A stretch of DNA of 33,069 nt from a virus. The notes beneath the pieces were generated by a model. The model saw only the letters and a program-made list of their open reading frames with translations, made no database searches and was not told the DNA's origin. Positions within the stretch are counted from its first letter, which is position 1. Each line of letters starts with the position of its first letter. Location of the stretch: the UHGV virus genome UHGV-1427736; one strand, 5' to 3'. Shown piece after piece: positions 1 through 33,069 of the stretch. Made by a program: the position numbers and the translations under genes.

Positions 1-55
1 GTTACACATAGCGAAATCTGTAAAAATCCTCCCACCGCGACATAGAGGAGGAGAA

Positions 56-640
56 TTGATGGCCGTCATTGGTTATATCCGTGTATCAACAATCGACCAG
101 AACAGCGATTTACAGCGTAATGCACTCACAAGCGCAAACTGTGACCGCATTTTTGAAGACCGTATGAGCGGAAAAGTTGCCAGCCGCCCCGGTCTGAAAC
201 GCGCTTTAAAGTGCGTTAATAGCGGAGACACCCTGGTTGTGTGGAAACTGGACAGGCTGGGGCGCAGCGTTAAGAACCTGATCGCACTGATATCAGAGTT
301 GCATGAGCGCGGTGCCCACTTCCGCTCTTTAACAGACAGTATTGATACCAGCACTGCCATGGGGCGTTTCTTTTTCCATGTGATGTCGGCACTGGCGGAG
401 ATGGAACGTGAGCTAATCGTCGAACGTACACTTGCCGGACTGGCAGCAGCCAGAGCACAGGGACGCATAGGCGGAAGGCCCAACGCATTAAAGCCGCATG
501 AGCGGGAACAGATTGGGCGGCTATTAACTAAGGGGCATACCCGCCAGCAGCTGGCTATTGTCTACGGGGTGGGGTTATCGACGCTCTACCGGTATTTTCC
601 GGTAGATGGTCAGAGGAAGGATGACACGGTAGGATTGTAA
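56..640 (+). CDS. Serine recombinase / DNA invertase (Hin/Gin/Pin/Cin family)
   Basis: 194 aa. N-terminus IGYIRVSTIDQ with catalytic Ser context, and a C-terminal HTH (GVGLSTLYRYFP) closely matching Hin-family invertases as I recall them. GAGGAGGAG RBS ahead of the ATG. Confidence 0.85.
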   Translation: MMAVIGYIRVSTIDQNSDLQRNALTSANCDRIFEDRMSGKVASRPGLKRALKCVNSGDTLVVWKLDRLGRSVKNLIALISELHERGAHFRSLTDSIDTSTAMGRFFFHVMSALAEMERELIVERTLAGLAAARAQGRIGGRPNALKPHEREQIGRLLTKGHTRQQLAIVYGVGLSTLYRYFPVDGQRKDDTVGL

Positions 641-651
641 TTCTTTTGCAA

Positions 652-1017
652 CTACTGAAACGCCGCAGCGGTGCCATTTATCTCACGGAAATGGGCGCAT
701 TTATCGCGCGGCGCATCAACATCCGGCGCGCCCCGGTGTTCAACCTCATCAACGGTGAATTTCCCTTTGCATACCAGGGCAAAACCTTTCCAGCCGATAT
801 ACACCGTCAGGACAGCGCCACGAACCGGTAGCCCGACCTGCCCGTCGGCATCGTTCAGTTCAATATCAAGCTGGTCAGCCTCAAAGCCCCGGTTATCCGT
901 CAGGGTCATGCTCATCAGACGGTCGCTGATATTGCCGGTAATATCCCTGCTGTCGAGCATCAGCATGTAATCCGGCGTCAGCGTACTGCCTGCATCAAAT
1001 GTCAGTGCATCCAGCAT
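652..1017 (-). pseudogene. D: P2 gpD (tail/late-control protein D) N-terminal fragment, truncated
   Basis: Starts immediately after gpU, as in P2 gene order, and has the gpD-like N-terminus (MLDALTFDAGSTL...). It is only 121 aa against roughly 390 aa for full gpD; the last ~16 residues look unrelated, and the ORF ends 11 bp from the converging invertase stop. Confidence 0.6.
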
Positions 1018-1496
1018 TATCCCGCCCCCGTCATCCCCGTGAATCTGGTCGCCATACTGCCAGCTTTACCGATGAGCGATTCCGCCTGTTTACCGATATC
1101 GCCATAAAGCGCGGCCAGTGATTCATCAACGCGGGTGAGCGACAGCGTAAAATCAATTTTCCGGGGTGTGCCGTCTGCAAAGAAAATACTCCCTGTTTCA
1201 CTTACCCTGCTGATGACATACATGCCGTAAATCATGCCGGTGCCATCCAGCAACGGCCACGCCCGGCCTTCCTCTGCCATCATCCTGAGCGTGGTCATCG
1301 TCAGCTTTCCGCCGGTCAGTTCGGGATAAAGCACACCGGCCAGCGTGATGTTTTCCTCACCCACACCGAGAAACTGAAAAGCGTCCCGTTTACCGATACG
1401 GGAATTTGACGGCCAGCGATAATCTGATTCACGCTGCATGGTCTGGTGTGGCAGCGTCTGGCGCATAAAAACAAACATACCTAACGCGAGCATCAT
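1017..1496 (-). CDS. U: Tail protein gpU
   Basis: 159 aa, matching P2 gpU in length and in position between T and D. Confidence 0.8.
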   Translation of the reverse strand: MMLALGMFVFMRQTLPHQTMQRESDYRWPSNSRIGKRDAFQFLGVGEENITLAGVLYPELTGGKLTMTTLRMMAEEGRAWPLLDGTGMIYGMYVISRVSETGSIFFADGTPRKIDFTLSLTRVDESLAALYGDIGKQAESLIGKAGSMATRFTGMTGAG

Positions 1497-1510
1497 TTTT
1501 CGTCACCTCC

Positions 1511-3958
1511 TTAACCGTCATGCATCATGCTGGCACGGGCGCGCGCACGTTTATCCCGCTCGTATTTTTCGAGCGCATCCTGTAACTGGCGGTCAAGCTG
1601 TGTCCCCGGCGCAGTACCACCCGTCAGGCTGATGTGATATTCGTTTTTACTCTGGTCCACATAAGAGCGGCCAGCCGGTGCCGTAACCGGCTGATAAGCC
1701 TGATAACCTGCATAAGAGCTGGTCGCCGGAATATAACCACCGGTGCCATACGTGGCGGCATGAGTCCTTGCGGCGGTCTGGTCAAGTGTGTCTGACTCTT
1801 TGTTGATAACCCCGAGTTTTTCCAGTACCCAGTCAATACCGCTGCGCAGTTTGTTGAACGCATTAAGCGGCAGCATCAGCGCGTCAGCCAGTGCCTGCCC
1901 GAACATGACACCCGTGTCACGGCAACTGTTCAGGGTGTCCTGAGTGGCTTTGACCGGGGCAATCAGGTTTTTAAACCACTGCCACGCAGCCTGTAACTTT
2001 TCGCCCAGCCAGTCAAACACCGGTTTCAGTGGCGTGAACAGCTCCCCCACCGGCGCAAATGCCGCTTTCAGCCCTTCCACCACACCGCCAAAGAATGCGC
2101 TGACAGGCTCCCAGTATTTACGGATAAGTAACGCCCCGGCGACAATGGCGGCCACCACGGCCACAACCGGCCAGCTAATCGCCCCGATGGCGGTCATAAC
2201 AGCACTGCCAACCGTCGTGAAAATTGCCCCCATTGCGCCTGCTGCCGCGATGATGGCATTAATGCCGGTGATAACCGGCCAGGCTACAAGACCAATGGCA
2301 CCGATGATGCCAGTCAGCGCCAGTGCGCCACCGACAATGAGGCCGATGGTTGACGCCAGTGATTTGTTTTTCTGTATCCAGCCGTCGAGTTTTAACACAT
2401 ACTTTGTGGCCGTCTGCGTAAGCTTACGCAGTGCGCCTTCCTGCTGGTCAAACAGGTCTGTCCCCACCGCCTCATAAGCGGACTGAAACTCCTTAAAGTC
2501 ACCGCCGAGGTTGTCCTGCATGATATTTACCAGCTCGGCGGTCTTCCCGTCTGAGGCTTTAAACGCAGCGGTCAGTTTGTCCAGCTTTCCGGTTGAGGCG
2601 GCAGTCATCAGCACGGCGGCGGCTGAGCTGGCCTCCTCCCCGAAAATGGTTTTCATGTATTCAGCCTGCTGGGCAGTACCGAGCCGGTTTTTCTCAAAAC
2701 TGGCCTGCATTTCTTTCAGAATGGTAAATACTGGCCGGGTGTTTCCCTTGCTGTCTGAGGTTTTCACACCAAGCTCTTTCAGTGCATCCCATGCTTTTCC
2801 CGTCGGTGCCTGCAGGCGGCTTAACACGGCACGGCTTCCCGTCCCCGCCATTGAACCGGTAATTTTTGCATCATGCAGCGCCCCGACCATTGCGGCGGTT
2901 TCTTCAATGCTGACACCGGCATTTTTTGCCACAGGTGCGGCATAGGTCAGCGCATCGCTCATGCCGTCAAAATCGGCGGCGGTTTTGTTCATCGTCATGG
3001 AGAGAACATCCCCGATATGAGCGACCTTATCGTTTGAAAGCTGAAAGGCGGATTTCATCCCCATCAACAGGGCGGCGTTTTCTTCCATCGTGCGGCGGTT
3101 CGCCAGCGCCATGTTCAGCGTGACCGGCGTTGCCGCCTGAATGGCATCAACATCCCCACCGGCTTTCGCAATAATAATCTGCGCACCGGCTGCATCATCT
3201 GCCGAGGCGGCGGTATTGTCGCCGAGCTGGCGCGCCTGCTTGCGGAGTGCGGCCATTTCGGCGGAGTCTTTTGCCACACCTAGCACGGCCTGCAATTCTG
3301 AGTTTTTCTGCGCAAACTCATAACCGGGCATCAGTAGCTTAACACCGGCCATCGTTCCCGCCGCCGCAATCCCCACACCGGCAGCGCCCACTGAGGCCAT
3401 ATTTCCGGCCAGTTCCTTTCCGGCCTGATAACGCTGTTTTACTGCGTTAAGTTTTGCCTGTTGCGCACTGACACGCGCCAGCGCATCACGCTGACGGTTA
3501 AGCTGTGCGGTGGTTTCACTGATACGGTTTTTCAGTCCCTGCTCATCATGTGCAAGATTGCGGGTATTAATTCCCACAGCGGCCAGTTCCCGCTGCTGGC
3601 GTTTAACGGAATCTGTCAGGCGGTTATATTTCGCCTGTAAGTCCTCCGCCGCACGCTTTGCGGATTCCAGCACTTTCGCCTGAGCACGGGTCGGACGTTC
3701 GGTGTTTTTAAACTGTGTGGCAAGGGCTTCGGCTTCCTGCCGTGCCTTTTCAAGTGCATGACCAGTCACGGCGAGCTGTGCACTGGTCTTGCGGAATCCC
3801 TCAATACGGGATGCGTGACCGTTCAGCTCGCGCAGTGATTTTTGTGTTTCCCGGATATCCCCCGACAGCGACCTGCTCGCTGTACGGATGGATTTAAACG
3901 GGCGGGATGCCTGGTCAACAGCCCTGAGCAATACCTGTAATTTTACATTGTTACTCAT
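1511..3958 (-). CDS. T: Tail tape measure protein gpT
   Basis: Long Ala/Gly-rich protein with coiled-coil N-terminus and hydrophobic glycine-zipper segments, in the P2 T position. The ORF-track start at 3970 is a GTG; the first ATG (MSNNVKLQ) is at 3958 and has a GGAAG RBS. Confidence 0.85.
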   Translation of the reverse strand: MSNNVKLQVLLRAVDQASRPFKSIRTASRSLSGDIRETQKSLRELNGHASRIEGFRKTSAQLAVTGHALEKARQEAEALATQFKNTERPTRAQAKVLESAKRAAEDLQAKYNRLTDSVKRQQRELAAVGINTRNLAHDEQGLKNRISETTAQLNRQRDALARVSAQQAKLNAVKQRYQAGKELAGNMASVGAAGVGIAAAGTMAGVKLLMPGYEFAQKNSELQAVLGVAKDSAEMAALRKQARQLGDNTAASADDAAGAQIIIAKAGGDVDAIQAATPVTLNMALANRRTMEENAALLMGMKSAFQLSNDKVAHIGDVLSMTMNKTAADFDGMSDALTYAAPVAKNAGVSIEETAAMVGALHDAKITGSMAGTGSRAVLSRLQAPTGKAWDALKELGVKTSDSKGNTRPVFTILKEMQASFEKNRLGTAQQAEYMKTIFGEEASSAAAVLMTAASTGKLDKLTAAFKASDGKTAELVNIMQDNLGGDFKEFQSAYEAVGTDLFDQQEGALRKLTQTATKYVLKLDGWIQKNKSLASTIGLIVGGALALTGIIGAIGLVAWPVITGINAIIAAAGAMGAIFTTVGSAVMTAIGAISWPVVAVVAAIVAGALLIRKYWEPVSAFFGGVVEGLKAAFAPVGELFTPLKPVFDWLGEKLQAAWQWFKNLIAPVKATQDTLNSCRDTGVMFGQALADALMLPLNAFNKLRSGIDWVLEKLGVINKESDTLDQTAARTHAATYGTGGYIPATSSYAGYQAYQPVTAPAGRSYVDQSKNEYHISLTGGTAPGTQLDRQLQDALEKYERDKRARARASMMHDG

Positions 3959-6655: not shown

Positions 6656-8920
6656 ATGGGTTTGCAAAGCATAAGAATAAAAAACTTACTATCATTTAAT
6701 GATGTAATAATAAATTCCCTAGAGGATGTAAATTGCATTGTAGGGATGAATAATGTTGGCAAATCCAATCTTATGAAAATATTGAAATATTTTTACGACA
6801 AACTTGACGACATAAAAGTAATACCTCCTGATTTTCATTCTAGTTATACTCCTTCAGGGTCAATAACATTGACTTATGATGTAACAAGAATAAAGAGAAT
6901 TGTAATGAACCCTAATAACAATGGTCGCTTTCACAAGCATATTTATAACACTTTATTTAAGCCACAATCATTCATCCGAAAGCCGCAGAAATTCTGTCTT
7001 CCTTTCATATCTCCTTTGGGTTTCCAAAGAAAAAGCACTTATAGCATTACACTCACAATTTCTAAAGATGACTCCGTAACTTGGTCAATTAGCACACCAA
7101 ATGCCCGGCATCTAATTAAAACTCTATTTCCTTTTTTCCATATTGAAACCAGACACATTGACTTATACGACTGGAATAGCATATGGAAAATGCTCAGCAG
7201 TATAAATTCCTTTAATTTCTCTGAAATAAAAAAAGAAGAACTCCTTGAGTTTTTGAATGAGAAAATATCAACTAAGCGGGGTAGTTACAAGAAGTATATA
7301 GAAAGAGTTGAAAATGTAATCCATACTAAACCTTACACCTATAAAGATAAAGTCGTTAATTATCTAAAAATAGTTTTAGATGGCGATATTTTCATAAATA
7401 AAGGTGAAGAACTACATGTTCAGTCGGATGGCACGAACTCTCACAAATATCTTGAAATTATACTTAGCCTATTAATTTCATTAACAAGAACAGAATTTAT
7501 CAATCCAATTATATATATTGATGAACCTGAAATTGGGCTACATCCAAAACTTAGCGAGAACTTTATTGAGAACATAAGCCTGACATATAAAAAGTATGAT
7601 AAAACCCATGAGGAAATTGAGCCTGGAAAATATTCAACACCATATCCAACTCTTATATTTAGCACTCATTCTCCGAGTTTACTAAAACTCACGCTAAAAT
7701 CTTTCTTACATAAACAGCAGGTTTTGCATTTTTCAAAAGAACGTGACAACTCGACCAAAATTTCAAAATTAAACTCTAAATATAATGACATTAGATTTAT
7801 AAATATGCTTAGCGATAATGAGGCCCGTCTATTCTTTAGTGAATACATTCTATTTGTAGAGGGCGCCACAGAAGTTGAATTGTTTAGAAATTATAATCTG
7901 CAAAAGCTGTTTCCAGTACTTAAAAGGTTAGATGTGTATGATTGCGATGAAGTAATGTTGAAAAATATAAACCCCAGCTACTCAAATGCAGCCATCCCAT
8001 TTCTAGTAGTAAAGGATATTGATCAGATTGCCGTTGTTGACTTCGAACATGAACAATTTAAATTTAATTCGAAAGGGAAATCAATTATTAATAAAATCAT
8101 TAAGAGAGATAAACTACACTATTTTTCGACATACCAAAAACCTTTTCTTAACGCAGCAAAATTTCTTTTAAGCCAAGATGAAAGGAAAGTAACATTCAGT
8201 GAAAATGGCCTAAAATTCAGACACTTCAGTATAGGCAGAGTTATAAGCGCAGTTAATTTTTTATCCTCTAAAGATAATGTTTATTATACTTCTACAACGA
8301 TAGAAGGCTCATTGATCAATGAATTCTCTTTAGAGACATTCTCTTTATGGATCATTGACATAGTAATGAGAAGCTTTAATGTAAATAATAAAAACCCTGT
8401 AAAAATGATTAATGCTCTGCTGCAAAAATACGATATTAAAACCCAATCAAAACAACTTTTTCCCAAAATACTTTCAAAATGTGAAACAAATCATAACCTA
8501 CCATTGCGACACATGAGATTATTGAAAATCATTAAAATTAGATATGCTAAAGAAATAATTGATGAGTTTAAAAAAACCATCCCCGACGTAAAAGACCAAG
8601 TTGCTATCTTGCGCCTTATTTTTAGTGGCAAAACAGAAACTCTTGTAAGTATAGAAATGCATTATAAAATTGATCAAAAACCGATACGGCAAGATATATT
8701 GGATTATATCAAAGCATTAAAGTCAGAAAATTTCTCTTTTATGAGTTCTTACATAGGAAAGACTTCTGGATGGGTTACAAGCTTCATTGATTTTAGCCTT
8801 AATCATTATTCAGCCCTAGATAAAGAAAATGTCGAAAAAAAATTCCGCTTGGCTTTTCCTGAAATTTCGCATATCATCGATCATGCTTCTTCTTCGATAG
8901 AAGCTGGAGGGCTCAAATGA
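6656..8920 (+). CDS. OLD-family nuclease: ABC-type ATPase fused to a C-terminal Toprim-like domain
   Basis: 754 aa. Walker A GMNNVGKSN (aa ~30), Walker B/D-loop IIYIDEPEIGLHP, H-loop LIFSTHSPS; then FVEGATEVELF (aa ~400) and VVKDIDQ (aa ~455), consistent with Toprim Glu and DxD motifs. Gene is markedly AT-rich compared with the flanking phage genes. Confidence 0.7.
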   Translation: MGLQSIRIKNLLSFNDVIINSLEDVNCIVGMNNVGKSNLMKILKYFYDKLDDIKVIPPDFHSSYTPSGSITLTYDVTRIKRIVMNPNNNGRFHKHIYNTLFKPQSFIRKPQKFCLPFISPLGFQRKSTYSITLTISKDDSVTWSISTPNARHLIKTLFPFFHIETRHIDLYDWNSIWKMLSSINSFNFSEIKKEELLEFLNEKISTKRGSYKKYIERVENVIHTKPYTYKDKVVNYLKIVLDGDIFINKGEELHVQSDGTNSHKYLEIILSLLISLTRTEFINPIIYIDEPEIGLHPKLSENFIENISLTYKKYDKTHEEIEPGKYSTPYPTLIFSTHSPSLLKLTLKSFLHKQQVLHFSKERDNSTKISKLNSKYNDIRFINMLSDNEARLFFSEYILFVEGATEVELFRNYNLQKLFPVLKRLDVYDCDEVMLKNINPSYSNAAIPFLVVKDIDQIAVVDFEHEQFKFNSKGKSIINKIIKRDKLHYFSTYQKPFLNAAKFLLSQDERKVTFSENGLKFRHFSIGRVISAVNFLSSKDNVYYTSTTIEGSLINEFSLETFSLWIIDIVMRSFNVNNKNPVKMINALLQKYDIKTQSKQLFPKILSKCETNHNLPLRHMRLLKIIKIRYAKEIIDEFKKTIPDVKDQVAILRLIFSGKTETLVSIEMHYKIDQKPIRQDILDYIKALKSENFSFMSSYIGKTSGWVTSFIDFSLNHYSALDKENVEKKFRLAFPEISHIIDHASSSIEAGGLK

Positions 8921-9034
8921 GCTGACGCATGCCGTCACTTGCTCCAGCAAACACTAGCTCGGATTGTCTTGCGTCCGCTAAGCCGCTTTAAGCCTCACGG
9001 GGTGTAAAGATGTTATTGGTATCGAAGAGGAAGC
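8885..9034 (+). ncRNA. Candidate retron msr-msd (non-coding RNA) flanked by a1/a2 inverted repeats
   Basis: GCTTCTTCTTCGAT (8885-8898) and ATCGAAGAGGAAGC (9021-9034) form a 14-bp inverted repeat with one G-U wobble, enclosing ~122 nt that is GC-richer than the flanks. Inside: stem GCTGGAG (8903-8909) / CTCCAGC (8942-8948) around two small hairpins (GCTCA..TGAGC and TGACG..CGTCA). The repeat lies directly upstream of the RT and a2 overlaps its RBS. Confidence 0.3.
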
Positions 9035-9040
9035 TTTTAC

Positions 9041-10138
9041 ATGAAACATAAAATTAATAAAATTAACAATGATTTTTATAAAAATTTTTATCTAAGAGAA
9101 ACATTCTCCGATGATATTATTATGACTCACGGAGTCCCTGAGATTTCCAATGACGATTATAAAAGCATTTCATTAAAGAATAGATTATGTTTCACTATAA
9201 GAAAAAGCTCCCCGCATAAAAAAATACAAGAAAGACTTATAAAAAATTTCCTAGTAAAAGTTCCTCTTAGCTCACCTGCAATTGCCTATCGTAAAAAATT
9301 AAACTATTTGAATTTTCTAGAACCTCATATCCATGGTGAGAACTTTTGTCGAATTGACTTATGTAATTTTTTTCATAACATAAACTATAACTTTGCAAGG
9401 GAGTGTTTCAAATCCTACTTTGAAGATGAATATCTGGTAAATAAAAAAATCAAAGTTATTGATGCATTTTTAAATAGTTTATCTATTGAGATTGTAGTCA
9501 ACAATAAAAAGAAAAAAATATTTCCAATGGGATTCGCCACATCACCTTTCATATCCAATATAATTTTCAGAAAGTTAGATATTTTAATTAAAAGTTTGTG
9601 TGACAAAAGAAGCATCATTTACACTCGTTATGCTGATGATATGCTTTTTTCGAGCTCCGGGAAAGACAAACTTCTTGGAAGTGAACATTTTGACAACGAG
9701 ATATCAACTATTGTCAATACGGCAGGACTGTCCCTCAACAAACATAAAAAAATATTTAAGAAAGGCATAATCTCACTAAACGGCTATGTAATAGAAAATA
9801 AAAATGGAGGGGGAGAGAGAGGGAGTATAAGAATATCTAATGGAAAAATGTATTTAATACGGAAAGCACTAGATAAATTTAAAAAGGGATATTCTAAAGA
9901 GCATATTTGCAAAAAAGTATTTTCTGTTAAATCACCAACTGTCAAGTATAATAACAATGCAGATCAGTTTGTAACGGATTTTTATAATTCACAATTCTCT
10001 AATAAGTTAGCTGGTTATCGTTCATATTTAATATCATTAGTAAAATTTAATGATAAATTCAGATGTTTTCACGAAAACGAAATCACCAAATACTCAGTGA
10101 TTATTGATGAAATTTCTAATGCACTGCTAAAACCCTAG
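9041..10138 (+). CDS. Retron-type reverse transcriptase
   Basis: 365 aa. RT motifs IFPMGFATSPFISNIIFRKLD and IIYTRYADDMLF (YADD box), plus PHIHGENFCRIDLCNFF, align closely with the retron Ec86 RT as I recall it. Size and lack of extra domains fit a retron RT. GAGGAAG RBS. AT-rich. Confidence 0.8.
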   Translation: MKHKINKINNDFYKNFYLRETFSDDIIMTHGVPEISNDDYKSISLKNRLCFTIRKSSPHKKIQERLIKNFLVKVPLSSPAIAYRKKLNYLNFLEPHIHGENFCRIDLCNFFHNINYNFARECFKSYFEDEYLVNKKIKVIDAFLNSLSIEIVVNNKKKKIFPMGFATSPFISNIIFRKLDILIKSLCDKRSIIYTRYADDMLFSSSGKDKLLGSEHFDNEISTIVNTAGLSLNKHKKIFKKGIISLNGYVIENKNGGGERGSIRISNGKMYLIRKALDKFKKGYSKEHICKKVFSVKSPTVKYNNNADQFVTDFYNSQFSNKLAGYRSYLISLVKFNDKFRCFHENEITKYSVIIDEISNALLKP

Positions 10139-24958: not shown

Positions 24959-25378
24959 CTAATCATCTTCTAAAGGTGGAATTTTGATGCCACTAATTAG
25001 CAGTACTTTCCGGTATGCCTCAAAAATAATGTTGTGTGTTTTTTGTAAATCATCGAGCATTTTTTGCCGTCCTGCTGGGGTATCTTTGGCAAAATTATGA
25101 GCGCGAAAAAAATCATGTGCCAAGTAGTTTCTGGCTTTAAGAGCATCTGACACATACTCCAGTGTATCAGCATCCTCCACCATCCTAGACTTCAGTGCGT
25201 AATTCAATTTACCCAGCGTGTATTTATCCATTTCTAAAAACTGTTTTTTCAGCGACTGTATATCTTTCCCCTGACTCATATCATACTCAGTGATAACATT
25301 TATCAACTCAGTCTCCAGTAATTGAGCTGCTTCCGAAGCATAACCAAATTTCCAATAAACCGTATCAAGCGTCACCAT
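24959..25378 (-). CDS. Small hypothetical protein with an Rx4H (HEPN-like) motif; partner of the adjacent HNH nuclease
   Basis: 139 aa, AT-rich, with no P2 counterpart I recognise. Contains ARNYLAHDFF (R-x4-H). GGGGAA RBS 8 nt ahead of the ATG; 91 bp downstream of the HNH gene on the same strand. Confidence 0.5.
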   Translation of the reverse strand: MVTLDTVYWKFGYASEAAQLLETELINVITEYDMSQGKDIQSLKKQFLEMDKYTLGKLNYALKSRMVEDADTLEYVSDALKARNYLAHDFFRAHNFAKDTPAGRQKMLDDLQKTHNIIFEAYRKVLLISGIKIPPLEDD

Positions 25379-25469
25379 ATAATCTATTCCCCATATAACA
25401 AATCACACCCCAAATTAAATCATAATACATAATTAAATCTAACGCCTCGCTGCACCAGAAGAAGTCATG

Positions 25470-26801
25470 TTAACGCTTATCATGGAACTTTTTCCATTTT
25501 GTCATCAACTTTCCAGCATCAAGTTCTACATGATGCGGTTGTAGAGTTTTACCCTCAAACATAGTTTTGTGGATACAATTAATAGAAAAATGAACCGTTA
25601 AGTCCTCTGGATTAATCCCCATTAATCCTTTATCAAACATTCGGTGTAAACTTACTTCAAGTAACAGGCCATTAGATGTGTTATTATTTGCTGATTCTGT
25701 TATTGCTTCAATATGTGCGGCTTCCAATATCCCCTCTGGCAATGGATAGCCAGTAATAGCACATCTGCCATTGAAGTTATCCCAAACACGGCGTTTGAAA
25801 TCAGCTTGATCTCCAGCATGACGGACTTTGTGAGTAACCTCGACTGTTCGTCCTGTAGCACAGGTATCGTTTGCGGCCTTGAAAGGATTAGTTAGACTTT
25901 CATTAATGGCTATATCCGTTCCATCCATGATAAGAGATATTTCATTATTGGGTTCGGATGATGTTAATGGACTTATGTACTGATTGCTTAAAAAAGTCAT
26001 ACTAGATTCTTCATCAGTCGCGAGTTTCCACGCTTCTGATTGTGTCATTGTTAGCAATGCCGTTTGATAAACTTGCTTATTAAAATAACGTTTATCTTTC
26101 TTGTCACTCCCCATATTAATAGTACTAGATTTAATCGGAAGTGTTTTATCACCAATTAGTAGATCACGTATTTCTACAGTCTCTTCTAAGGTATCAATAG
26201 GAGCTACTATAGGGTTAGTCAACGGGTTATCTACATGATCTACGTGGTTGTGTCGTAAATGCCACTCTATAGCACTATCTTTTATATGTATCTCGCAGAC
26301 AGGGCATACAATAAGCCCCATAGATGTTACAGGTAGCTTTTTGCCACCGATTAAGCGTAATGTATTTGCATTCTGGTTATGTACTTTCTTTTGGTTCTGT
26401 GTCAGTACACTACGCTTAGCCTCTAAACGGGTCGGAATCTTAGCAAGATTAAGCGATTTACGGCTCTCTTGTCTCTCAAGATCATAGATCCGAATCCCTG
26501 CTCCAGTTTTGATTTTTGTCCACATAGAGATAGAACTAAGGAATTTATGTCCATGTACTTTTTCATAATCAGCATAAGCTTGCAAAGTAGCAGTGGAACT
26601 ATCTAATCCTTTTTTACGGAGTGCTGTATATTGCTGAAAAAGATTAATAGCATGAGCTGTAATAGAGCGCCTATTCTCTATAATTTGCGTTTTTTTTGCT
26701 GCTTGTTCTGCTTGCAATGCTTTTTGTTCAGGGGTAAGCGACTTCTTTTTGGCTTTCTTGGTTCTTTTCTTACTCAAAGTTTTCTTACTGTTATTGTTCA
26801 T
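25470..26801 (-). CDS. Zinc-finger / HNH (His-Me finger) nuclease with a basic N-terminal tail
   Basis: 443 aa. Lys-rich N-terminus (MNNNSKKTLSKKRTKKAKKKS); C2H2-like CPVCEIHIKDSAIEWHLRHNH; C-terminal HNH motif GRCAITGYPLPEGILEAAHIEAI...NGLLLEVSLHRMFDKGL. AT-rich gene between cos and A. Confidence 0.65.
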   Translation of the reverse strand: MNNNSKKTLSKKRTKKAKKKSLTPEQKALQAEQAAKKTQIIENRRSITAHAINLFQQYTALRKKGLDSSTATLQAYADYEKVHGHKFLSSISMWTKIKTGAGIRIYDLERQESRKSLNLAKIPTRLEAKRSVLTQNQKKVHNQNANTLRLIGGKKLPVTSMGLIVCPVCEIHIKDSAIEWHLRHNHVDHVDNPLTNPIVAPIDTLEETVEIRDLLIGDKTLPIKSSTINMGSDKKDKRYFNKQVYQTALLTMTQSEAWKLATDEESSMTFLSNQYISPLTSSEPNNEISLIMDGTDIAINESLTNPFKAANDTCATGRTVEVTHKVRHAGDQADFKRRVWDNFNGRCAITGYPLPEGILEAAHIEAITESANNNTSNGLLLEVSLHRMFDKGLMGINPEDLTVHFSINCIHKTMFEGKTLQPHHVELDAGKLMTKWKKFHDKR

Positions 26802-32838: not shown

Positions 32839-32865
32839 AATCTCCCTTACGCGGGCTTATTTTTT
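32839..32865. other. Prophage attachment core (P2 att core-like, prophage-host junction)
   Basis: AATCTCCCTTACGCGGGCTTATTTTT matches the reverse complement of the P2 att core as I recall it (AAAAAATAAGCCCGTGTAAGGGAGATT) with one or two mismatches, about 80 bp after the int stop. Confidence 0.45.
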
Positions 32866-32943
32866 ACCTTTCATCCTGTTCTTACCCGCTTTTTCCTTCT
32901 CTGGGATACACTCTTTCTATAGTTAAAAAAGGGAGCAACCCGG

Positions 32944-33069
32944 ATGGCATCCTATCCAGACAGTTTATTAATTCTCAATGGCAAAAGTGCAGGCAACGAT
33001 CTGTTGCGCCAGGCGATCACCGAATTGCGTGAAGATGGCGCGCGCATTCACGTGCGGGTGACCTTTGAA
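32944..33069 (+). CDS. yegS: Host gene, N-terminal part (YegS-like lipid kinase), partial at window end
   Basis: [40 protein letters not shown] resembles the N-terminus of enterobacterial YegS as I recall it. GGGAG RBS. Composition returns to host-like after the att core. Confidence 0.45.

What the first reader, a model, noticed from the sequence alone, without database searches (positions are those of the whole stretch)
1..1017. Prophage left end is rearranged: gpD truncated and abutted by a converging Hin-family invertase
gpD retains roughly its first 105 residues and ends in unrelated sequence; no ogr gene or att site follows. 11 bp away, on the opposite strand, ends a complete Hin/Gin/Pin-type invertase gene. 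In phages these invertases normally sit beside an invertible tail-fiber segment, but here H and G are 10 kb away and show no sign of an invertible cassette. Either an invertase-bearing element recombined into D, or this is a junction with a second (possibly tail-fiber-switching) element lying beyond the window. The prophage may be unable to make functional tails.
Basis: partly seen in the sequence, partly recalled or inferred. Interest (0 to 1): 0.45.

Follow-up and report, generated by a model that had tools for sequence, protein, structure and literature searches.

The report
Transposable phage inserted into P2 gene D
The truncated tail gene and the neighbouring invertase mark the spot where a second, Mu-style "jumping" phage transposed into a resident P2-like prophage. 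This is an ordinary, fully explained nested-prophage junction, not a new kind of rearrangement.

Summary
Window 652-1017(-) encodes the first 100 residues of P2 gpD plus 21 foreign residues. A complete 193/194-aa Gin-type invertase (56/59-640, +) ends 11 bp away.

The cause is a single transposition event. Window 1-718 is the right end of a roughly 35-kb BcepMu-like transposable prophage, which ends ...GCGCATCA at 718. The same end abuts unrelated genes (barA, dsdX/dsdA, glcF, rlmC, csgC) in five complete E. coli genomes. Each time the element runs TG...CA and is flanked by a 6-bp target duplication.

I predicted the reciprocal junction as GGTGACC-ACATCC|TGATTAG... and found it in five independent assemblies, three from samples that also hold the right junction. 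There it is followed by the rest of D (288 aa), ogr and the host genes trhP-baeRS. So nothing was deleted: D is split at codon 100 with an ACATCC duplication.

The invertase is the incoming phage's own host-range switch. Its gix-like sites and tail-fibre cassettes begin 4 bp beyond window position 1, where the metagenome contig broke. Contigs sharing this junction carry the segment in both orientations.

The host is an Enterobacter cloacae-complex bacterium. Interest is low.

The parts
1..718 (+). Right-terminal 718 bp of a BcepMu-like transposable prophage (the remaining ~34 kb lies beyond the contig end).
   Evidence: 99.3-99.4% identical to the right ends of complete ~35-kb prophages in E. 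coli S12 and AVS0747. 24 E. coli records match, all ending at 718-722 next to different host genes.
59..640 (+). Gin-type serine DNA invertase (193 aa from the ATG; an upstream in-frame TTG is at 56), the last gene of the transposable phage.
   Evidence: Resolvase + HTH_7. PHROG 125 DNA invertase. Phage Mu Gin structures 3UJ3/4M6F at E~1e-78 with the catalytic Ser in the conserved YxRVST motif.
641..718 (+). Right transposon end: terminal ...CA at 717-718, with two subterminal repeats ATTTATC(G/T)C at 699-707 and 676-684. Their reverse complement is G(A/C)GATAAAT, at +12 and +35 from the tip. These are the presumed transposase binding sites.
   Evidence: The same motif sits at the same offsets at the left end of the element, and related motifs (G(A/C)GATA with an A/T-rich tail) sit at the same offsets at both ends of phage BcepMu. 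Only 4 occurrences in the whole 33-kb window on both strands.
719..724 (.). ACATCC: the right copy of the 6-bp target-site duplication in gene D.
   Evidence: Intact D reads GGTGACC-ACATCC-GGCGCG. The window reads ...GCATCA|ACATCCGGCGCG. The left junction in L054, L056, L057, L059 and L061 reads GGTGACCACATCC|TGATTAGAC....
652..1017 (-). Chimeric ORF D': codons 1-100 of P2-type gpD (719-1017), then 21 codons and a stop read from the transposon end (652-718).
   Evidence: Break at window 718/719, which corresponds to L001 6000/6001.
1017..1496 (-). P2 gpU, intact, immediately upstream of D in the same operon. It anchors the P2-like context.
   Evidence: Pfam Phage_P2_GpU 2.8e-44. 100% DNA identity to the UPEC85 prophage over 719-3000.

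Best explanation
A BcepMu-like (Mu-style) transposable temperate phage integrated by DDE-transposase strand transfer into codon 100 of tail gene D. The target was a P2-like prophage already resident between trhP(yegQ) and yegS in an Enterobacter cloacae-complex chromosome. Staggered cuts 6 bp apart duplicated ACATCC. Window 1-718 is the incoming phage's right end. It holds that phage's last gene, a Gin-type invertase, followed by 78 bp of transposon terminus ending in CA. The invertase played no part in making the junction. It flips a ~2.1-kb tail-fibre/assembly-protein segment bounded by 26-bp gix-like sites, and that segment begins 4 bp left of window position 1. The metagenome contig stops there because the assembly could not traverse the 248-nt inverted repeat; a mix of both orientations in the sample would produce such a break. 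D is split into a 100-aa N-terminal stub (in the window) and a 288-aa C-terminal remnant followed by ogr and attL, about 35 kb away. The P2-like prophage is therefore very probably D-minus and tail-defective.

Shown here: the exact breakpoints, the duplication, the reciprocal junction, the family and termini of the element, the many other insertion sites, and the two orientations of the segment.

Inferred: the ~35-kb size and completeness of the element in this particular strain, the cause of the contig break, and the loss of P2 tail function.
For: (1) P2 homology begins exactly at 719 in more than 1,600 E. coli genomes and in P2 itself.

(2) Window 1-718 matches 24 E. coli records. Each match ends at 718-722 next to a different gene.

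(3) In 5 of 5 complete genomes examined, the element is TGATTAG...GCGCATCA, splits one locus, and is flanked by a 6-bp duplication: ATTCAT, CACATT, AATAAT, CCATAG, GACAAT.

(4) 27 metagenome contigs carry the left end, with about 25 distinct flanks.

(5) The element encodes an rve-type DDE transposase that is 68-69% identical to those of BcepMu and phiE255, an ExeA-like AAA ATPase and Mor. It is gene-for-gene syntenic with BcepMu, including the early operon pointing at the left end. Its termini are homologous to BcepMu's.

(6) Prediction test. The 288-aa ORF expected at the left junction (GTG at V100) exists in the protein collection. Five of the ten contigs shown for it read GGTGACCACATCC|TGATTAGACTTGAG.... 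These include L054, L057 and L061, which come from the same samples as the right-junction contigs L006, L010 and L012. L054 continues into D', ogr, trhP, baeR, baeS and the mdt genes.

(7) L006 and L007 extend the window leftwards into gix-like sites, inverted fibre cassettes and baseplate genes. They carry the segment in opposite orientations.

(8) Empty attB: the two host flanks overlap by 27 bp in E. cloacae M-7.
Against: The whole element was not recovered from the window's own sample. Its length and integrity there are extrapolated from relatives that are 99% identical over the 718 bp seen. Exact-pattern scans for the left junction in the JGI metagenome and viral collections found nothing, so the reciprocal junction is documented in other samples that carry the identical right junction, not in sample 3300045988 itself. 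Contigs L009 and L011 share the junction but carry a different fibre cassette (84% identity), so the lineage is not strictly clonal in that region. I could not confirm from the literature held here that a 6-bp duplication is the published value for BcepMu-type transposases.
Confidence: 0.93

Rival explanations
1. Metagenome mis-assembly: the contig falsely joins a Mu-like phage end to a P2-like prophage.
For: The window is a complete metagenome contig that ends at a repeat. No complete E. coli genome of the 5,426 searched has this junction.
Against: The identical chimeric ORF is found in 8 contigs from independent samples, from several sources and with different contig-naming schemes (JGI, ENA k141_ and NODE_ contigs, Logan). 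The reciprocal junction has the exact 6-bp duplication predicted beforehand and is seen in 5 assemblies. The break falls precisely at the element's biological terminus.
Confidence: 0.01
2. The serine invertase itself, or a gix-like pseudo-site in D, mediated insertion or inversion that fused the invertase module to D. This is the reader's 'invertase-bearing element recombined into D' taken as site-specific recombination.
For: The invertase lies only 78 bp from the junction. Hin/Gin enzymes can act on secondary sites (general knowledge).
Against: The junction is at a TG...CA transposon terminus with a 6-bp direct duplication, the signature of DDE transposition. Serine invertases exchange at a 2-bp core and make no duplication. 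The gix-like sites lie upstream of the gene, outside the window. The same terminus abuts more than 25 unrelated sequences. No gix-like sequence is present at 700-740.
Confidence: 0.01
3. Deletion or rearrangement: replicative transposition or recombination removed the 3' part of D, ogr and attL, leaving a truncated P2 remnant fused to the Mu-like end. This matches the reader's title.
For: Within the window nothing of D beyond codon 100, ogr or att is present. Transposable phages do generate adjacent deletions (general knowledge). Many P2-like prophages elsewhere carry internal deletions ending in D (P0001, P0002, P0008).
Against: In samples ERZ27276303, ERZ783192 and ERZ784722, both junctions exist with matching ACATCC. 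D codons 100-387, ogr and the host flank are intact. For the window's own sample this is inferred, not observed.
Confidence: 0.04

Closest known systems
Burkholderia phages BcepMu and phiE255 (genus Bcepmuvirus), with the enterobacterial relatives Escherichia phage PhiKM (PQ738613), Phi06_2974 B (KM389306/7) and contig KP12_2 (OM835952)
   Same: The transposase is 68-69% identical to BcepMu/phiE255 and 93-97% to PhiKM/Phi06_2974 B. It has an ExeA-like transposition ATPase, Mor, and a GemA-like gp16. The early operon is inverted towards the left end, followed by the lysis cassette, Mu-type head genes and P2-type tail genes in the same order (PMC2771037; PMC5977238 for the B3-type layout). The TG...CA termini carry homologous subterminal repeats at +12 and +35. 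It inserts at many sites.
   Different: BcepMu has no tail-fibre inversion system (PMC2771037); its right end carries fibre gene H plus an acyltransferase. The element here ends with an invertible fibre segment and a Gin-type invertase, with no gene after it.
Phage Mu G segment / Gin (also Hin, Cin, Pin) DNA inversion systems
   Same: A 193-aa serine invertase that matches Mu Gin over its whole length (E~1e-78). 26-bp sites TTCCCCTAAACC-AA-GGTTTTTGGAAA lie in inverted orientation at the outer ends of a 248-nt inverted repeat. Two opposed sets of fibre C-terminus plus assembly protein are present. The invertase gene lies just outside the segment at the phage's right end. Both orientations are seen.
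   Different: The carrier phage is not Mu. MuA-type transposase is absent (no Mu hit at E<=1e-5) and there is no com/mom after the invertase. The transposon end follows 78 bp after the stop codon. The target duplication is 6 bp, against 5 bp for Mu (the Mu value is from memory).
Nested prophages: Mu-like phage inserted in another prophage
   Same: GenBank records of Stx-converting phages (LC727881, LC727895) annotate a 'region of the inserted Bacteriophage Mu-like phage' and carry a related invertase. This is the same phenomenon of a transposable phage landing inside a resident prophage.
   Different: Here the recipient is a P2-like prophage, the hit gene is the essential tail gene D, and the host is Enterobacter.

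Membership tests
BcepMu-like transposable phages | rve/DDE transposase of the BcepMu (Tn552/IS1604-related) type, not MuA | tested here: met
   Tested in relatives 99% identical over the shared end. Pfam rve at 1.6e-07, 31.9 bits, just under the 32.6-bit curated cutoff. tblastn gives 67.8% identity to BcepMu and 69% to phiE255 over 98% of the length. The gene itself is outside the window.
BcepMu-like transposable phages | Companion ExeA-like AAA+ transposition protein and a Mor-type activator, in an early operon that points to the left end (inverted relative to Mu) | tested here: met
   AAA_22 3.3e-20 and Mor 1e-42. Gene order and strands in L004, L015-L017 match BcepMu genes 1-13.
BcepMu-like transposable phages | Termini 5'-TG...CA-3' with repeated subterminal transposase sites | tested here: met
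   Window 717-718 is CA. Repeats lie at 699-707 and 676-684. The same architecture is found at the left end and at both BcepMu ends.
BcepMu-like transposable phages | Insertion at many unrelated sites with a short target duplication | tested here: met
   5 of 5 complete genomes have 6-bp duplications. About 25 distinct left flanks occur in metagenomes. In this lineage ACATCC is present at both junctions.
BcepMu-like transposable phages | Replicative transposition, and packaging with host DNA at the virion DNA ends | not testable with these tools
   Requires virion DNA or induction experiments.
Hin/Gin/Cin/Pin DNA invertases | Serine recombinase of about 190 aa with an N-terminal catalytic domain (active-site Ser ~9-10) and a C-terminal HTH | tested here: met
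   Resolvase + HTH_7. Aligns to Gin residues 2-182, including the YxRVST motif.
Hin/Gin/Cin/Pin DNA invertases | Two 26-bp hix/gix-type sites in inverted orientation flanking the invertible segment, next to the gene | tested here: met
   The sites are not in the window, which starts 4 bp past the right site. They are present in L002 and in the junction-sharing contigs L006, L007 and L009-L013.
Hin/Gin/Cin/Pin DNA invertases | The segment actually inverts | tested here: met
   L006 and L007 carry the identical D junction but have the ~1.7-kb core in opposite orientations, with the breakpoint at the gix core. This is observational; no enzymology was done.
Hin/Gin/Cin/Pin DNA invertases | Fis-dependent recombinational enhancer inside the 5' part of the invertase gene | not tested
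   Fis sites are too degenerate for a convincing scan, so none was attempted.
P2-like phages (Peduovirus), gene D | Full-length gpD of about 387 aa following U and preceding ogr | tested here: not met
   Only codons 1-100 remain contiguous with U. Intact relatives have a 387-aa D plus ogrK. The remainder lies across the insert.

The most novel reading that the evidence does not exclude
The enterobacterial BcepMu-like phages may form an uncharacterised hybrid lineage. It would combine a BcepMu transposition and morphogenesis backbone, a Mu-style Gin/G-segment host-range switch at the extreme right end, and a 6-bp target duplication. Its insertion into another prophage's essential tail gene might also not be random, for example selected inter-prophage interference or tolerated 'safe-harbour' targeting.
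Probability: 0.07. Interest if true: 0.45.

Novelty: new member of a known kind. Interest (0 to 1): 0.15.

Why it matters
The main value is as a resolved annotation puzzle. A truncated P2 D next to a Hin-like gene is explained by one transposition event, and no novel recombination is needed. It gives a clean natural example of one temperate phage inactivating another by insertion, with both junctions and the target duplication documented across several metagenomes. It also shows that invertible segments break short-read contigs exactly at the gix site, which can mislead a reader looking at a single window. Finally, it records that BcepMu-type transposable phages carrying a Gin module circulate among Enterobacter, Escherichia and Klebsiella and make 6-bp duplications. 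None of this changes current understanding.

Tried and rejected
- An exact-pattern scan of metagenome contigs for the predicted left junction found nothing. Scanning viral contigs for a shorter left-junction pattern gave 8 chance matches in unrelated sequence, and the right-junction pattern gave none.
- The second metagenome scan, with the left-end sequence alone, gave 27 loci. None was in gene D, but they were useful as evidence for many insertion sites.
- The search for homologous proteins with the D C-terminus did not list the left-junction protein. It listed other truncated or fused D proteins (V-D, FI-D and T-D fusions), which I read as internal deletions in other P2-like prophages.
It worked only after listing of cluster members gave it an id.
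- Five of the ten contigs shown for the 288-aa ORF (L053, L055, L058, L060, L062) lack the Mu-like end. They represent other disruptions of D and are irrelevant here.
- Literature searches did not yield a published target-duplication length for BcepMu. The B3 paper is not held, and the 'PhiKM' search was swamped by phiKMV papers.
- Homologous recombination between the two phages' D genes was considered and rejected. They share only 33% identity over 178 aa, and the junction is at the transposon tip, not in the Mu-like D gene.

Full report

Yes. The ORF list and the sequence show a 194-aa ORF at 56-640(+), which is 193 aa from the ATG at 59. A 121-aa ORF lies at 652-1017(-), with 11 bp between the two stop codons.

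The first ORF carries Pfam Resolvase and HTH_7 domains and hits PHROG 125 'DNA invertase' at 5.8e-86. The second hits no Pfam family. Its residues 1-100 match the P2 gpD PHROG (phrog_52, 9e-48). They are identical to the first 100 residues of the intact 387-aa gpD of the E. coli UPEC85 prophage, and the last 21 residues are unrelated. gpU and the tape-measure protein follow upstream as in P2.

Megablast puts the P2 homology boundary at exactly 719 in more than 1,600 E. coli genomes and in phage P2 itself, which is 96.9% identical. Intact relatives have D (387 aa) followed by ogrK and then host genes. None of that lies in the window to the left of 719.

**2. What is window 1-718?**

Searched on its own, it matches 24 E. 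coli records at 91-99% identity. Every match stops at 718-722, and the neighbouring gene differs each time: barA, dsdA, rlmC, csgC, gadC, napB, hybA, ynfE and others.

In strains AVS0747 and S12 (99.3-99.4% identical over this stretch), the DNA upstream is a prophage of about 35 kb. It has Mu-type head genes (DUF935 portal, Mu F-like and G-like proteins), P2-type tail and baseplate genes, and a tail fibre plus assembly protein. An inverted second set of fibre C-terminus plus assembly protein follows, and then the recombinase.

At the other end is an early operon pointing outwards. It encodes an HTH regulator, a DUF3102 protein, a 589-aa rve-type DDE transposase, an ExeA-like AAA ATPase, DUF3164, a gp16 (GemA-like) protein and Mor.

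The transposase is 68-69% identical to those of Burkholderia phages BcepMu and phiE255, 56% to Pseudomonas B3, and 93-97% to Escherichia phages PhiKM and Phi06_2974 B. The BcepMu record is syntenic gene for gene except at its right end, which carries fibre gene H plus an acyltransferase.

Published descriptions agree. BcepMu replicates by transposition, has terminal CA dinucleotides, and has a Tn552/IS1604-type transposase unrelated to MuA. Its genes 1-13 lie on the bottom strand, its tail genes are P2-like, and it has no tail-fibre inversion system (PMC2771037). B3-type phages differ from Mu by an inverted early operon and different transposition proteins (PMC5977238).

**3. Termini and target duplication**

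In five complete genomes the element runs from TGATTAGACTTGAGATAAATG... to ...ATTTATCGCGCGGCGCATCA. In four it splits a gene (barA, glcF, rlmC, csgC), and in the fifth it sits in the dsdX-dsdA spacer. Each copy is flanked by a 6-bp direct duplication: ATTCAT, CACATT, AATAAT, CCATAG and GACAAT.

Two of these cases alone could not distinguish a 5-bp from a 6-bp duplication. The other three do: their sixth bases read the same on both sides, and in rlmC that base is G, which shows that the T before GATTAG belongs to the element.

Both ends carry G(A/C)GATAA(A/T)T at +12 and +35 from the tip, which corresponds to window 699-707 and 676-684. BcepMu's ends are TGAAGAGAGGTGAGATATTTCC... and TGAAGCGCGGCGCGATATTTC..., with the same architecture.

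A scan of metagenome contigs for the 27-nt left end returned 27 loci with about 25 different flanks. The element therefore behaves as a transposable phage.

**4. Prediction test in this lineage**

If the window shows a simple transposition, the other end of the element should read ...GGTGACC ACATCC|TGATTAGAC.... An ORF starting at the GTG of D codon 100 (288 aa) should then be callable there.

That exact 288-aa sequence is in the protein collection (P0121). Five of the ten contigs shown for it (of 11 read) have precisely the predicted junction. Three of those come from samples that also contain the right junction:

| Sample | Right-junction contig | Left-junction contig |
|---|---|---|
| ERZ27276303 | L006 | L054 |
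| ERZ783192 | L010 | L057 |
| ERZ784722 | L012 | L061 |

L054 continues into the D remnant, ogr, trhP, baeR, baeS and the mdt genes. D is therefore split at codon 100 with an ACATCC duplication, and nothing is lost.

The right junction itself, recognised by the identical 121-aa chimeric ORF, occurs in 8 contigs from JGI, ENA and Logan assemblies. One of them is the window, which is the whole contig Ga0495776_061701 of sample 3300045988. This excludes mis-assembly.

**5. The invertase and the 'missing' invertible cassette**

The protein aligns end to end with phage Mu Gin (PDB 3UJ3/4M6F, E~1e-78), including the catalytic-serine motif.

In AVS0747 a 248-nt inverted repeat (94% complementary) bounds the fibre cassettes. 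At its two outer ends are the sites TTCCCCTAAACC-AA-GGTTTTTG(GAAA/ACAA). From memory, these closely resemble the hix/gix half-site consensus TTATCAAAAACC around a central AA.

Window position 1 corresponds to the base 4 bp beyond the right site. Two other junction contigs stop inside the same repeat (L012 and L013).

L006 and L007 have the same D junction but carry the segment core in opposite orientations, with the switch point at the gix core. This is direct observational evidence that the system inverts. L009 and L011 carry a different cassette (84% identity) at the same junction, which I did not pursue.

**6. Host and prophage context**

The last 200 bp of the window and the L054 flank are only about 81% identical to E. 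coli, or unmatched there. They are 98-99% identical to Enterobacter hormaechei B56 and E. cloacae M-7.

In M-7 the two flanks overlap by 27 bp. That is the empty P2-type attachment site between trhP and yegS. The corresponding att copy in the window lies around 32839-32865.

The rest of the P2-like prophage has ORFs of normal size, though I did not examine it in detail. The incoming phage's own gpD homologue is only 33% identical to P2 gpD over 178 residues. Cross-complementation is therefore doubtful, and the P2-like prophage is probably tail-defective. That last step is inference.

**7. Rivals**

- **Mis-assembly** is excluded by the recurrence of the junction and by the reciprocal junction.
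- **Invertase-mediated recombination** is excluded. The junction is at the transposon tip and has a 6-bp duplication. Serine invertases exchange at a 2-bp core and make no duplication. The gix-like sites lie upstream of the gene.
- **Deletion of the P2 left end** is excluded in the three samples that hold both junctions. It is unlikely, but not directly excluded, in the window's own sample.
- **Homologous exchange between the two D genes** does not fit the breakpoint.

**8. Comparison and novelty**

The element is a member of the BcepMu-like transposable phages by every sequence-testable criterion. It differs from BcepMu in carrying a Mu-style Gin and invertible fibre module as its right-terminal unit. 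Close relatives are already deposited (PhiKM, Phi06_2974 B, KP12_2).

Transposable phages landing inside other prophages are also on record, for example the Stx phages annotated with an inserted Mu-like phage.

The finding is therefore a well-resolved, ordinary event: a new instance of known kinds. Interest is low, at about 0.15.

Noticed in passing
window 6656-10138 (+): A retron defence system sits in the P2 hotspot between the tail-fibre genes and FI. It comprises a 754-aa ATPase-Toprim effector (PADLOC ATPase-Toprim_I-B, 1.6e-210) and a 365-aa reverse transcriptase (RT_I-B, 2.7e-106). The UPEC85 counterpart is annotated 'retron Eco8 family effector endonuclease'.
   Followed up: partly
window 24959-26801 (-): A 443-aa protein with a C-terminal HNH match (PADLOC HNH, 2.2e-11) and an adjacent 139-aa ORF with no match lie in the variable region between Q/cos and the early genes. 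This is possibly another hotspot cargo or defence gene pair.
   Followed up: partly
window 32839-33069; loci L064, L065: The host flank (yegS start) is 98-99% identical to Enterobacter hormaechei / E. cloacae and has no megablast match in 5,426 E. coli genomes. Yet the prophage DNA is 100% identical over 2.3 kb to an E. coli UPEC85 prophage. The same P2-like phage, and the same BcepMu-like phage, therefore circulate across genera. The empty attB in E. cloacae M-7 shows a 27-bp core overlap.
   Followed up: partly
L009 (ERZ784772) and L011 (ERZ784705), region next to the invertase: These contigs share the identical D junction but carry a tail-fibre/assembly cassette only ~84% identical to the one in L006/L007/AVS0747. 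That suggests cassette replacement or more than two alternative cassettes in this lineage.
   Followed up: no
proteins P0001, P0002, P0008, P0016-P0026: Many database proteins fuse the N-terminus of another P2 tail protein (V, FI sheath, T, I, J) in frame to the C-terminal two-thirds of gpD. I read these as internal deletions in decaying P2-like prophages of E. coli that end inside D.
   Followed up: no
L053, L055, L058, L060, L062: The same 288-aa D remnant (GTG at codon 100) is called in contigs without any Mu-like insertion. In L053 it follows a separate 81-aa ORF. D is therefore also disrupted by other lesions in other strains.
   Followed up: no
phage records LC727881 / LC727895: Stx-converting phage records are annotated with a 'region of the inserted Bacteriophage Mu-like phage' and carry a related invertase (~69% DNA identity). 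This is a precedent for transposable phages nesting inside other prophages.
   Followed up: no
OM835952.1 (L005), 'Klebsiella phage KP12 clone KP12_2': This 34.9-kb record is filed under Vequintavirinae. By gene content it is a BcepMu-like transposable phage genome, 93.8% identical to window 1-663. It is probably a co-assembled prophage or contaminant contig that has been mislabelled taxonomically.
   Followed up: partly
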